Part shown: positions 1 through 2,052 of the stretch, piece after piece
How the letters are laid out: each line of letters opens with the position of its first letter
Numbering within the stretch: the first letter of the stretch is position 1
Notes under the pieces: generated by a model
What the model was told of the DNA's origin: nothing
The model's input: the letters and a program-made list of their open reading frames with translations, nothing else
Database searches by the model: none
Translations under genes and position numbers: made by a program
Source: a virus
Length of the DNA stretch: 64,000 bases
Virus record (IMG/VR): IMGVR_UViG_3300037069_002364
Location: 5,500 to 69,499 of that record
Strand: one strand, 5' to 3'

Positions 1-969
1 TGCGCGCAGTTTGTTGACGCGATTCTTCTCCCCGGTCGCTAGTCGTCCAACCAGCCGGGGGGAAATCCCATCAGCCATGACACCCACACTGCCGACAGGC
101 TCCCGCTCCCAGATGGCGGCGAGGGGCTGCCGTCCGTCCCATCCGAGCCACGGGTGATCGCCGTCTGCAAGTCCATCCCGCCCCGTCCATGCAGGCCCGG
201 ACTGTTCGCGTTTTGCGCTTTCGGCGTCGGGAACATCTGTACATGCCGTCCCAACAGGCTGTTCACCGGCACCGTCCCGTTCACCACTGACACACCCGTA
301 TCCTTGTGATCCCTGCTGGTCGGCGTGGGTATCATGCGCGACGATGAAGACTCTTTCCCTTTTGTGCCACGCGCCGACGCCGCAAGCCGGAAATACAACC
401 GGCCAGACTTCGTAACCTGCGGCTTCCAAGTCAAGGCACACATCATCGAGTGCCATTGCGATGAAGCCACTAACGTTTTCACCACAAATCCAAGTGGGCC
501 GGAGTTCCGCAATAAGTCGAGACATTTCAGGCCAGAGGTGGCGGTCGTCCGCCGTGCCGCGTTGCTGTCCCGCGATAGAAAATGGTTGGCACGGGAATCC
601 TCCGGTGAGGAGATCAACACTTGTACGTGGAGCGGATCGGCAAAGCGCACCTTCCCCGCCGCTACGCGAGCTCGCTGACGCTTCTCCCATGTCTCTGGCT
701 TCACCGTCCCGCGTCCCTCGTACCAACTCGCTGCTGGCGTACTGAACATCTGCGGTGGAGTCGCGGGCGAGGTGGGCGCGAACAATCTCGCCTGTGAGAG
801 TGTGGATGTCGCCATGTATCGGCACGTCCCTCCAGTGCTTCTCCAGCACCTTGCGGCAGTACGGGTCGATCTCGCAGTGCAGGGCCGTGGTGAAGCCCGC
901 CCACTGTGCCGCCAAACTGAAACCGCCAATGCCACTAAAGAGATCGACGTGGATAGGGCGTTTATTCAC
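1..969 (-). CDS. DNA (cytosine-5) methyltransferase, large (alpha) polypeptide; truncated by window edge; not in ORF track
   Basis: Manual translation from GTG at 969 is open to position 1: motif I HVDLFSGIGGFSLA, CEIDPYC, GDI, motif IV LLTGGFPCQPFSIAG, motif VI GENVSG, motif VIII HKRERVFIVAH, and motif X start RVNKLRA at the edge. Confidence 0.9.
   Translation of the reverse strand, partial: MNKRPIHVDLFSGIGGFSLAAQWAGFTTALHCEIDPYCRKVLEKHWRDVPIHGDIHTLTGEIVRAHLARDSTADVQYASSELVRGTRDGEARDMGEASASSRSGGEGALCRSAPRTSVDLLTGGFPCQPFSIAGQQRGTADDRHLWPEMSRLIAELRPTWICGENVSGFIAMALDDVCLDLEAAGYEVWPVVFPACGVGAWHKRERVFIVAHDTHADQQGSQGYGCVSGERDGAGEQPVGTACTDVPDAESAKREQSGPAWTGRDGLADGDHPWLGWDGRQPLAAIWEREPVGSVGVMADGISPRLVGRLATGEKNRVNKLRA
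39..815 (-). CDS. Nested alternative-frame ORF, probable beta polypeptide of the C5 methyltransferase carrying motif IX
   Basis: ATG at 815 (MATSTLSQARLF), three (F/I)(P/S)TP repeat units, and C-terminal WVSWLMGFPPGWLD resembling motif IX. Lies wholly inside the alpha gene in another frame. Confidence 0.65.
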   Translation of the reverse strand: MATSTLSQARLFAPTSPATPPQMFSTPAASWYEGRGTVKPETWEKRQRARVAAGKVRFADPLHVQVLISSPEDSRANHFLSRDSNAARRTTATSGLKCLDLLRNSGPLGFVVKTLVASSQWHSMMCALTWKPQVTKSGRLYFRLAASARGTKGKESSSSRMIPTPTSRDHKDTGVSVVNGTVPVNSLLGRHVQMFPTPKAQNANSPGLHGRGGMDLQTAITRGSDGTDGSPSPPSGSGSLSAVWVSWLMGFPPGWLDD

Positions 970-1169
970 GGCGCAACCGCGAAGCCGTGGTCGTCCAGCG
1001 TCAGTTCTTCGTCGGCGGTGACGGTGATCTGTACAAAGCGCGCACCCTTCACAACACGAAAGACGCGCCGCTCTTCGTGGACAACCAGATGATCGGGGAA
1101 CATGTCAGGCAGCATGTAATCGAGCGCATTCTCGACGTACTCAACTGCCTTCGTCGTGTCGTATGGCAT
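966..1169 (-). CDS. Hypothetical protein
   Basis: MPYDTTKAVEYVEN..., RBS upstream, stop overlaps the GTG of the methyltransferase. Confidence 0.6.
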   Translation of the reverse strand: MPYDTTKAVEYVENALDYMLPDMFPDHLVVHEERRVFRVVKGARFVQITVTADEELTLDDHGFAVAP

Positions 1170-1209
1170 CTCTCGTTTCTCCCACCTACACGTCATTGCC
1201 CATCCCCTC

Positions 1210-2052
1210 TCAATACACGGCCTTGCCTTGTGCCGGAATATCCGGGCTGAGTGGACGCTTCGGCTTCTCCGGGTCTTTGTTCATCGGGGGCGCTTCCCAC
1301 ATGTGCGCCGCGATGTACTTCGCCATCCCCGGCACGAAGCGCCCACCGTCCCGCATCCACTCCGAGGACTCCTTGTGTGCGTTCAGGGCGCGGAGCGTCG
1401 TTACCATGTCGGGGAGGTCGCCACTGCGAAAGGCTGCTGCCCACTCGCGCTTCGCCTCGTTGATATTCGTACGCCGTGCTGCCGGGTACGCCCGCTGGAA
1501 CGCCTCGAAGTCACGCACCACCGCTTTGGGGATCGCCGCGCTCTGTGTCTGCGTCTGGTCTGTCTCTGTGTCTGGTCTGTTCTGTATCTGGTCGGTTTCA
1601 GAAACGTTACTGAAACGTTTCATCGCCGTTTCGGAAACAATGGTCGGTAACGTTTCCGAAACAATGGGCCGTGGTGTTTCGGTAACAGTGAGGGGTGCTG
1701 TTTCGGAAACGTCCTCCACCGTTTCACCCCGCTTGGCGGCACGGTGTTTCTGCACCCGATTGGTGGAGGTCTGGTACTGGTGGGCGTCCCACTCGTGGGG
1801 GGAGAGTACGCCGTCCTCGTCGTCAAGGAGGCCACAGGCGGTGAGGGCGGTGAGGGAGGCGGTCACAGCGGACACGTCCTCGCGCAGTGTCCAGGCAAGG
1901 TCAGCAGCGGGGGGCAGGACGCCCCCCGGCTGATTCTCCATCGAGGCGATGCAGAGCAGGTTCACCCAGAACTTGAAAAGGTCGCCACTGAGCGCCTGCA
2001 CCTTGCGGTTATTGATTGTGGCGTTATGAAAGCGGAACCAAGTCATCGCCAT
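1210..2052 (-). CDS. Phage replication initiator protein
   Basis: N-terminal WFRFHNATINNRKVQALSGDLFKFWVNLLCIAS initiator-type domain, central VSET repeats (iterons), C-terminal FEAFQRAYP...GRFVPGMAKYIAAHMWE domain. Confidence 0.85.
   Translation of the reverse strand: MAMTWFRFHNATINNRKVQALSGDLFKFWVNLLCIASMENQPGGVLPPAADLAWTLREDVSAVTASLTALTACGLLDDEDGVLSPHEWDAHQYQTSTNRVQKHRAAKRGETVEDVSETAPLTVTETPRPIVSETLPTIVSETAMKRFSNVSETDQIQNRPDTETDQTQTQSAAIPKAVVRDFEAFQRAYPAARRTNINEAKREWAAAFRSGDLPDMVTTLRALNAHKESSEWMRDGGRFVPGMAKYIAAHMWEAPPMNKDPEKPKRPLSPDIPAQGKAVY
1545..1730. repeat. Iteron array / probable replication origin inside the initiator gene
   Basis: Repeated GTTTC(G/A)GAAAC, GAAACGTT(T/A)C and GTAAC units next to a strand-biased TCTG(T/G) tract. 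Confidence 0.75.

What the first reader, a model, noticed from the sequence alone, without database searches (positions are those of the whole stretch)
1..969. Dual-frame C5 methyltransferase with motif IX in a nested ORF, plus repeat units that appear constrained in the nested frame
Seen: the true MTase frame (969 to <1, missed by the ORF track) has motifs I-VIII and the start of X but no motif IX. An overlapping frame from ATG 815 carries WVSWLMGFPPGW and three (F/I)(P/S)TP units. One unit falls between alpha motifs III and IV, where alpha reads as a ~40-aa low-complexity insertion. Established: M.EcoHK31I is an alpha/beta heterodimer whose beta chain, encoded in an alternative frame within the alpha gene, supplies motif IX. 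Inference: this is a phage version, and the beta-frame repeats may be modular specificity elements.
Basis: partly seen in the sequence, partly recalled or inferred. Interest (0 to 1): 0.7.

Follow-up and report, generated by a model that had tools for sequence, protein, structure and literature searches.

The report
Methyltransferase gene with nested second subunit
This soil phage's DNA cytosine methyltransferase gene is read in two overlapping frames: one gives the catalytic core and the other gives the missing DNA-recognition part, a layout shown experimentally for one E. coli enzyme (M.EcoHK31I) but conserved in every related gene I could resolve and rarely annotated.

Summary
[quoted passage not shown] The +1 frame (window 935-39, minus strand) carries three PTP-type units and motif IX.

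This is not a GC-rich accident.
- All 90 viral and metagenome loci held have the nested ORF in the same +1 register. So do 67 of 80 bacterial loci; the other 13 were not resolved by my patterns.
- The genes range from 43 to 63% GC.
- Substitution periodicity follows alpha in motifs I-III and X. It follows beta between motifs VIII and IX. Alpha's wobble rate is damped about 2.6-fold where both frames code (IV-VIII).
- A complex model scores 0.88 against 0.02 for the best control, with beta's motif IX packed on alpha's motifs X and I.

- Beta most likely starts at ATG 749, which is conserved in the three closest relatives. ATG 815 is not conserved.
- Beta homology begins upstream of alpha motif IV, so beta is a roughly 236-aa subunit and not merely a motif IX peptide.
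- The 40-aa alpha insertion is the shadow of an extra N-terminal beta unit.

This scan has noted the same layout before on other DNA (129 notes). I class it as a new member of the M.EcoHK31I kind. Direct sequence comparison with M.EcoHK31I could not be run.

The parts
1..969 (-). Alpha gene: C5 cytosine methyltransferase core, 346 aa. It starts at GTG 969 (GTGA overlap with the stop of the upstream ORF) and ends 72 nt left of the window (L001:1429). [quoted passage not shown]
   Evidence: Pfam PF00145 E 1.5e-37; phrog_363 E 1.9e-74
39..749 (-). Beta gene in the +1 frame of alpha: 236 aa from ATG 749 to the TAG stop at 41-39. It has an N-terminal PTP unit, an N-domain, two PTP units and motif IX. 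Other possible starts are TTG 785, ATG 815, GTG 704, GTG 650 and GTG 620.
   Evidence: (phrog_1008 E 9e-27)
631..786 (-). Alpha insertion between motifs III and IV (about 40-50 aa, low model confidence). It is the alpha-frame shadow of beta's N-terminal extension and its first PTP-type unit.
   Evidence: (L008 shows the same pairing)
334..627 (-). Truly dual-coding stretch. Alpha motifs IV-VIII and the beta N-domain (RRTTATSG ... LTWKP ... GRLYFRL) are read from the same bases.
   Evidence: fixed 49-nt offset from PCQ to T.TSG; alpha wobble rate 0.157 against 0.413 in motifs I-III
315..332 (-). Beta PTP unit 2 (IPTPTS, then RDHKDTG...VPVNSLLGR).
216..233 (-). Beta PTP unit 3 (FPTPKA). The alpha frame reads DVPDAE here.
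51..86 (-). Beta motif IX (WVSWLMGFPPGW).
   Evidence: touches alpha 320-331 and 14-19
577..600 (-). Alpha motif IV (GFPCQPFS, catalytic Cys127).
334..366 (-). Alpha motif VIII (HKRERVFIVAH).
1..333 (-). Alpha linker from motif VIII to motif X (residues about 213-323). It is not conserved in the alpha frame and is modelled as disordered; here the bases serve beta.
   Evidence: (pLDDT under 50 for residues 221-309)

Best explanation
The locus encodes a two-polypeptide DNA (cytosine-5) methyltransferase from one stretch of DNA.

- Alpha (346 aa) is the AdoMet-binding and catalytic large domain (motifs I-VIII) plus motif X.
- Beta (about 236 aa) is started independently inside alpha's variable region between motifs III and IV and is read in the +1 frame. 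It supplies what alpha lacks: a domain that docks on alpha's motif VII-VIII sheet and C-terminal helix, a target-recognition region built of PTP-type units, and motif IX, which packs against motifs X and I.
- Alpha and beta together would rebuild the canonical enzyme that methylates the phage's (or host's) DNA, presumably to escape restriction.

Shown here: both frames are conserved and selected, the register is fixed, and the complex model is confident.

Inferred: both proteins are made, both are needed, beta carries the specificity, and the exact start of beta.
For: 1. Motif split. Alpha has motifs I-VIII and X only, and beta has motif IX.

2. Conservation of the layout.
- The beta frame matches phrog_1008 (E 9e-27).
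- It has tblastn matches in 85 phage records, including 47-53% GC phages of Paenibacillus, Lacticaseibacillus, Klebsiella and E. coli. Each of the six I opened has the same +1 nested ORF.
- All 90 loci held have beta in frame +1 of an alpha ORF.
- 67 of 80 bacterial loci from many phyla have it with one fixed 49-nt offset from PCQ to T.TSG.
- A beta profile finds 39,801 representative proteins at E up to 1e-3 and 22,076 at E up to 1e-10.

3. Selection in both frames. Differences per site at alpha codon positions 1/2/3, in 33 gene-disjoint pairs (the same pattern in 135 pairs):
- motifs I-III: 0.094/0.053/0.413;
- motifs IV-VIII: 0.116/0.058/0.157;
- motifs VIII-IX: 0.323/0.179/0.171, with the peak at beta's third position;
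- motif X: 0.126/0.111/0.318.
- Sign tests gave 33/33, 31/33 and 30/33.

4. ORF length. The +1 ORF is longer than codon shuffles give, P = 0.0026 here and at most 0.0008 in six homologues.

5. Independent initiation. A beta-frame start codon with a Shine-Dalgarno-like 4-mer is present in 73 of 92 genes, against 35 of 92 in the +2 control.

6. Complex model. ipSAE is 0.88 against 0.02 for the best of 3 controls. The calibration mark was reached by 58 of 80 solved complexes and 2 of 110 mismatched pairs. The runs agree in at least 74% of contacts, and the partner pLDDT is at least 61. Beta 214-234 lies on alpha 320-331 and 14-19, and beta 82-124 lies on alpha 187-212. The pass may partly reflect likeness to solved monomeric C5 methyltransferases.

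7. Precedent. In M.EcoHK31I, beta is encoded wholly in another frame of alpha, and both are required for methylation (PMC2836561, PMC3404938).
Against: - There is no expression or activity data for this phage.
- No good Shine-Dalgarno sequence precedes ATG 749, and several starts are possible.
- Beta alone models poorly (pLDDT 57).
- The window's first unit is degenerate and has no significant match by itself.
- In the window's own small clade the insertion is too diverged to show frame-specific selection.
- The literature places the recognition domain of M.EcoHK31I on alpha, not beta (PMC2836561). I could not compare sequences with that enzyme.
- A single-chain relative exists (P0370), so a frameshifted fusion product is conceivable.
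Confidence: 0.85

Rival explanations
1. One fused protein is made by two programmed ribosomal frameshifts: +1 after motif VIII and -1 after motif IX. This would restore the canonical order I-VIII, recognition region, IX, X.
For: The single-chain relative P0370/L099 has exactly this order in one frame, with PTP units very like the window's. The frame changes needed are +1 and then -1.
Against: - The beta N-domain upstream of motif VIII is conserved and damps alpha's wobble rate, which a fusion product would not need.
- Beta-frame start codons with Shine-Dalgarno-like sequences are enriched.
- Two efficient shifts in one gene would be unprecedented.
- M.EcoHK31I works as two separately expressed chains (PMC2836561).
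- I did not scan systematically for slippery sites.
Confidence: 0.05
2. Beta is made but is not a subunit of the enzyme. It could be, for example, a regulator of alpha or an independent DNA-binding protein.
For: No activity data exist. Beta alone models poorly. Some beta homologues carry long unrelated extensions (P0357, 869 aa).
Against: - Alpha lacks motif IX, which canonical enzymes need, and beta has it.
- The complex model places motif IX on motifs X and I as in monomeric enzymes.
- Motif X can sit on either chain in relatives (L122, P0250), as expected for parts of one enzyme.
Confidence: 0.05
3. The two-frame picture is an artefact. Either a pair of assembly indels broke a single-frame gene (or it is a pseudogene), or the second ORF is a chance open frame in 61% GC DNA.
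For: The window is GC-rich and has other long shadow ORFs. Codon shuffles give a median +1 run of 123 codons.
Against: - The same register is seen in all 90 viral or metagenome loci and in 67 of 80 bacterial loci, from independent assemblies at 43-63% GC.
- The +1 frame has protein homologues at E down to about 1e-40.
- The periodicity switch between frames is clear.
Confidence: 0.01

Closest known systems
M.EcoHK31I (E. coli HK31, YGGCCR), alpha/beta C5 methyltransferase (Lee, Kam and Shaw 1995, as described in PMC2836561 and PMC3404938)
   Same: - Beta is encoded entirely in another reading frame inside the alpha gene.
[quoted passage not shown]
- The two chains must associate.
- The plasmid names pET3a-M38 and pET3a-C23 in PMC2836561 hint at chains of about 38 and 23 kDa, close to 346 and 236 aa here. 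This is my inference from the names only.
   Different: - The literature puts the recognition domain on alpha and only motif IX on beta. Here the region between motifs VIII and X evolves as beta's frame, not alpha's, so the recognition region lies on beta.
- This copy has an extra N-terminal beta unit with a matching alpha insertion.
- It sits in a phage replication module with no restriction enzyme seen next to it.
- Sequence identity to M.EcoHK31I was not tested.
M.AquI (alpha: motifs I-VIII plus part of the variable region; beta: the rest plus IX-X; PMC3404938)
   Same: It is a natural two-chain C5 methyltransferase. M.AquIA is the second-best Swiss-Prot structural match of alpha residues 3-214. 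Relatives of this family with motif X on beta (L122, L146, P0250, P0259) divide the motifs as M.AquI does.
   Different: In this window motif X stays on alpha, and the beta gene is fully nested rather than following alpha.
Monomeric C5 methyltransferases (M.HhaI, M.HaeIII) and the single-chain relative P0370/L099
   Same: The catalytic fold and motif order are the same. P0370 has the same PTP units and motif IX as beta, in line with motifs I-VIII and X.
   Different: They are one frame and one chain, and they have no beta N-domain. The +1 frame of P0370 shows no beta-like sequence.
Multispecific Bacillus phage C5 methyltransferases (SPR, phi3T, rho11s) with tandem target-recognising modules (my own knowledge, not checked here)
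   Same: Specificity is carried by short modules arranged in series in the variable region, and these can be gained, lost or swapped.
   Different: Those are single chains in one frame. Their modules were mapped experimentally, whereas the PTP units here are only inferred to recognise DNA.
Out-of-frame HNH endonuclease insertions in phage methylase genes (ShiLan element, PMC11855218)
   Same: This is another hidden ORF in an alternative frame of a phage methylase gene. The relative L096 carries an HNH-motif ORF (not run against Pfam) in the +1 frame between motifs IX and X.
   Different: That element is a selfish insertion, not a subunit of the enzyme. The window has none.

Membership tests
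M.EcoHK31I-type nested alpha/beta C5 methyltransferase | The beta ORF lies entirely within the alpha ORF in a different reading frame on the same strand. | tested here: met
   Beta at 749-39 lies inside alpha (969 to 72 nt left of the window), in frame +1.
M.EcoHK31I-type nested alpha/beta C5 methyltransferase | Alpha carries motifs I-VIII and X but not IX. | tested here: met
   Pfam matches only profile positions 4-56 and 60-166, and LGNAVVP is at residues 324-330.
M.EcoHK31I-type nested alpha/beta C5 methyltransferase | Beta carries motif IX. | tested here: met
   WVSWLMGFPPGW aligns with the invariant W..WLMGFP.GW of beta homologues. It is modelled against motifs X and I.
M.EcoHK31I-type nested alpha/beta C5 methyltransferase | Both polypeptides are made, and both are required for methylation. 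| not testable with these tools
   Indirect evidence only: selection in both frames, start-site enrichment and the complex model.
M.EcoHK31I-type nested alpha/beta C5 methyltransferase | [quoted passage not shown] | not tested
   The original paper (PMC306636) is not held, there was no supplement, and no entry appeared among 30 Swiss-Prot structural matches.
M.EcoHK31I-type nested alpha/beta C5 methyltransferase | Target-recognition domain on alpha (as the literature describes M.EcoHK31I). | tested here: inconclusive
   Here the linker from motif VIII to X is unconserved in alpha's frame and is modelled as disordered. Whether M.EcoHK31I really differs cannot be judged without its sequence.
C-5 cytosine DNA methyltransferase (Pfam PF00145) | Score above the gathering cut-off, with catalytic PCQ and ENV motifs. 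| tested here: met
   130.2 bits against a cut-off of 22. PCQ is at residues 126-128 and ENV at 164-166.
PHROG 1008 (annotated DNA methyltransferase), the beta family | Significant match over most of the profile. | tested here: met
   E 9.2e-27, beta-frame residues 104-298 on profile positions 35-281 of 329. Neither Pfam nor NCBIfam has a model for it.

The most novel reading that the evidence does not exclude
The PTP-type units of beta are exchangeable target-recognition cassettes. Their number (1-8) and identity would set the methylated sequence, and they are swapped between otherwise near-identical genes. New units can even be added at beta's N-terminus, at the cost of inserting junk into alpha between motifs III and IV, as in this window.

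Together with about 300 nt of real two-frame coding kept across tens of thousands of genes in many phyla, this would make the family one of the largest and oldest same-strand overlapping gene pairs known. It would also be a natural toolkit for retargeting cytosine methylation.
Probability: 0.4. Interest if true: 0.7.

Novelty: new member of a known kind. Interest (0 to 1): 0.55.

Why it matters
- **Annotation.** Gene callers keep only one of the two frames. Beta is unannotated in five of the six phage records opened (three; three). In metagenomes beta is often called instead of alpha. Neither Pfam nor NCBIfam has a beta model, so many phage methyltransferases are recorded as incomplete or as hypothetical proteins.
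- **Evolution.** About 300 nt in which two conserved protein domains are read from the same bases is a rare, well-replicated case for studying how overlapping genes evolve.
- **Application.** If beta carries the specificity, swapping its units could predict or re-engineer methylation targets. That matters for phage escape from restriction and for split-methyltransferase tools, which already use M.EcoHK31I.

Tried and rejected
- **Original paper.** I tried to read the original M.EcoHK31I paper (PMC306636), but it is not held. The follow-up paper has no held supplement.
- **Naming M.EcoHK31I by structure.** A Swiss-Prot search with the alpha model gave only ordinary C5 methyltransferases over residues 1-218.
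- **Beta against other libraries.** Pfam and NCBIfam gave nothing. A beta profile against PDB sequences gave 0 matches.
- **Beta folded alone.** Confidence was too low (pLDDT 57, pTM 0.23) for a fold search, so none was run.
- **First unit alone.** The window's N-terminal unit, searched alone against 223 beta proteins, gave no hit.
- **Codon-position test in the clade.** Applied to the alpha insertion within the window's own four-member clade, the sequences were too diverged and the result was uninformative.
- **ATG 815 as the start.** I considered it and rejected it as the best choice because it is not conserved in relatives.
- **A script error.** My first script on the bacterial loci used a wrong offset and found nothing. 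It was corrected.
- **Literature.** Searches for a description of the family-wide nested layout found only the M.EcoHK31I papers and an unrelated out-of-frame HNH case.

Full report
**What is in the sequence**

The window starts inside a gene. It is G000:C1:5500-69499 of a 71.6-kb uncultivated virus record.

Reading leftward, the minus-strand ORF that starts at GTG 969 ends 72 nt beyond the window (L001:1429-2469, 346 aa). I call it alpha.
- It passes Pfam DNA_methylase (E 1.5e-37) and phrog_363 (E 1.9e-74).
- It has motif I (residues 9-16), PCQ (126-128), ENV (164-166), motif VIII (202-212) and, just outside the window, LGNAVVP (324-330).

The frame one base downstream (+1) is stop-free from 935 to 39.

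**Is the second frame real?**

On its own a long shadow ORF in 61% GC DNA means little, and the window has others. Four lines of evidence say this one is real.

1. *Length.* Codon-order shuffles of alpha reach the observed 308-codon run in only 0.26% of trials. For six homologues at 47-54% GC the figure is at most 0.08%.

2. *Homologues.*
   - The +1 product matches phrog_1008 over residues 104-298 (E 9e-27).
   - It has protein homologues down to about 1e-40.
   - It has tblastn matches in 85 phage records.
   - In each of the six annotated phage genomes I opened, an alpha ORF with motifs I-VIII and X contains a +1 ORF of 182-264 aa with the same conserved blocks. These were Paenibacillus phage Tadhana, phage C72C1, Lacticaseibacillus phage R9.1, Klebsiella phage KlebP_265, E. 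coli phage HC8A and Lactobacillus phage Lc-Nu.
   - Only the Paenibacillus phages annotate it.
   - In metagenome contigs the gene caller often kept beta and dropped alpha.

3. *Fixed register.*
   - All 90 loci held (80 viral contigs plus ten others) have beta in frame +1 of alpha.
   - 67 of 80 loci from bacterial genomes of many phyla show one fixed offset, 49 nt from alpha's PCQ to beta's T.TSG.
   - The other 13 were truncated or missed by my patterns.
   - A beta profile finds 39,801 representative proteins at E up to 1e-3.

4. *Selection.* I counted differences per site at alpha codon positions 1, 2 and 3 in 33 pairs of genes, each gene used once, at 74-96% identity.

| Region | Position 1 | Position 2 | Position 3 |
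|---|---|---|---|
| Motifs I-III (alpha only) | 0.094 | 0.053 | 0.413 |
| Motifs IV-VIII (both frames code) | 0.116 | 0.058 | 0.157 |
| Motifs VIII-IX | 0.323 | 0.179 | 0.171 |
| Motif X (alpha only) | 0.126 | 0.111 | 0.318 |

   - Alpha's wobble position evolves freely where alpha codes alone.
   - It is damped 2.6-fold where both frames code.
   - Between motifs VIII and IX the fast position is beta's third position.
   - Sign tests across pairs gave 33/33, 31/33 and 30/33.
   - The 135 overlapping pairs show the same pattern.
   - The pairs are gene-disjoint but not strictly independent on a tree.

**Anatomy of beta**

Beta homology does not begin after motif VIII. It begins upstream of alpha's motif IV.

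Beta therefore has three parts:
- an N-domain (RRTTATSG ... LTWKP ... GRLYFRL), read from the same bases as alpha motifs IV-VIII;
- a region of PTP-type units;
- motif IX.

Alpha's linker from motif VIII to X is unconserved in alpha's own frame and is modelled as disordered (pLDDT under 50 for residues 221-309). The small conserved DVAD/DVPD motif in that linker is the shadow of beta's MWPTP/MFPTP.

**The alpha insertion and beta's start**

The roughly 40-aa alpha insertion between motifs III and IX's upstream neighbour, motif IV, is absent from distant homologues. It is present in the three closest relatives, L094, L095 and L096, whose alpha chains are 50-60% identical to the window's.

In all four genes the beta frame there begins with a conserved ATG directly followed by a PTP-type unit. 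The unit is canonical in L094 and L096, partly degenerate in L095 and degenerate in the window.

More distant betas (P0057 in L008, and P0067) also have an N-terminal unit. In L008, where I read the alpha frame, it is paired with an alpha insertion at the same place.

The start is better placed at ATG 749.
- ATG 815 has no counterpart in L094 and a differently placed one in L095 and L096.
- No candidate has a good Shine-Dalgarno sequence, so the start stays open.
- Family-wide, a beta-frame start with a Shine-Dalgarno-like 4-mer occurs in 73 of 92 genes, against 35 of 92 in the +2 control. It lies most often 33 codons before T.TSG. This argues for independent initiation.
- Within the window's small clade the insertion is too diverged for a frame-specific selection test. 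The window's unit has no significant match by itself.

**How it most likely works**

The complex model of alpha with beta (my own alignments) scores ipSAE 0.88, against 0.02 for the best of three controls.
- The calibration mark was reached by 58 of 80 solved complexes and 2 of 110 mismatched pairs.
- The runs agree in at least 74% of contacts, and the partner pLDDT is at least 61.
- Beta's motif IX (214-234) lies on alpha's motif X (320-331) and motif I (14-19).
- Beta 82-124 pairs with alpha's motif VII-VIII strands (187-212) and C-terminal helix.

This is the arrangement of a monomeric C5 methyltransferase, so part of the score may come from likeness to solved enzymes. It supports binding but does not show it. 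Beta alone folds poorly, as expected for a chain that needs its partner.

My reading is that alpha and beta are made separately and assemble into one enzyme, with beta carrying recognition. The published behaviour of M.EcoHK31I is the precedent: beta lies wholly in another frame of alpha, and methylation is lost when beta's starts are removed and restored by beta in trans (PMC2836561).

**Variants that help the argument**
- *Single-chain relative.* P0370/L099 (74% GC) has motifs I-VIII, two PTP units, IX and X in one frame, and no beta-like sequence in its +1 frame. So beta's distal half is homologous to an ordinary variable region plus motif IX, and the N-domain is peculiar to the nested form.
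- *Motif X on beta.* In others, beta runs on into motif X. For L122 I read both frames, and there alpha stops after motif VIII, the division known from M.AquI.
- *Unit number.* It ranges from 1 to 8 among 223 beta proteins.
- *Mosaic relatives.* L095 and L096 differ by 2-8% in motifs I-VIII but by 16-40% in the unit regions. This mosaic fits exchange of recognition modules, but that is inference.

**Rivals**
- *Two programmed frameshifts making one chain.* These would mimic P0370. But they do not explain the selected N-domain or the enriched starts.
- *Assembly errors or a chance ORF.* Both are excluded by the fixed register across independent assemblies.
- *Beta with an unrelated role.* This is unlikely, because alpha lacks a motif that beta supplies.

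**Comparison and novelty**

All sequence-testable defining features of the M.EcoHK31I kind are met.

I could not obtain the M.EcoHK31I sequences, so direct homology is untested. The literature's placing of the recognition domain on alpha may or may not be a real difference.

My literature searches found no description of the family-wide nested layout.

This scan has noted the same layout on other DNA many times: 129 notes. I saw those notes after reaching the same reading and re-tested the claims here.

I file it as a new member of a known kind. Its one distinctive feature is the N-terminal beta unit that forces an insertion into alpha.

Noticed in passing
L096:447-2048: The closest-clade relative has a 533-aa alpha. 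After beta's stop, the +1 frame carries an ORF with HNH-endonuclease motifs (not run against Pfam) inserted between motifs IX and X. This resembles the out-of-frame HNH element described in PMC11855218.
   Followed up: partly
L122:2729-3807 and L146; also P0250, P0259, P0366, P0368: In these variants beta reads through into motif X. For L122 I read both frames, and alpha stops soon after motif VIII, so motif X can sit on either chain (an M.AquI-like division with overlapping genes).
   Followed up: partly
L099:1501-2595 (P0370): A single-chain relative at 74% GC has motifs I-VIII, two PTP units, IX and X in one frame. Its +1 frame has no beta N-domain. It is useful for working out which form came first.
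   Followed up: partly
L028 and L078 (near 1131 and 1472): Here the alpha ORF begins exactly at PCQ, with a stop just before it, while beta continues upstream. Alpha may be interrupted by an insertion or split.
   Followed up: no
L095 versus L096: These two genes are 92-98% identical in the catalytic part but have different PTP units in all three unit regions. This mosaic suggests cassette exchange.
   Followed up: partly
P0357 (869 aa): This beta homologue has a roughly 570-aa C-terminal extension of unknown nature after motif IX.
   Followed up: no
window 966-969 and L001:1-1332: Alpha's GTG start overlaps the stop of the upstream 76-aa ORF (GTGA). The gene downstream of alpha is a zinc-finger primase/DnaB-like helicase (my reading of its sequence), so the methyltransferase sits in the replication module.
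   Followed up: no
window 1163-1933 (+) against 1210-2052 (-): A 256-aa antisense shadow ORF lies opposite a 280-aa gene. It shows that long alternative ORFs are common in this GC-rich phage and that ORF length alone is not evidence.
   Followed up: no
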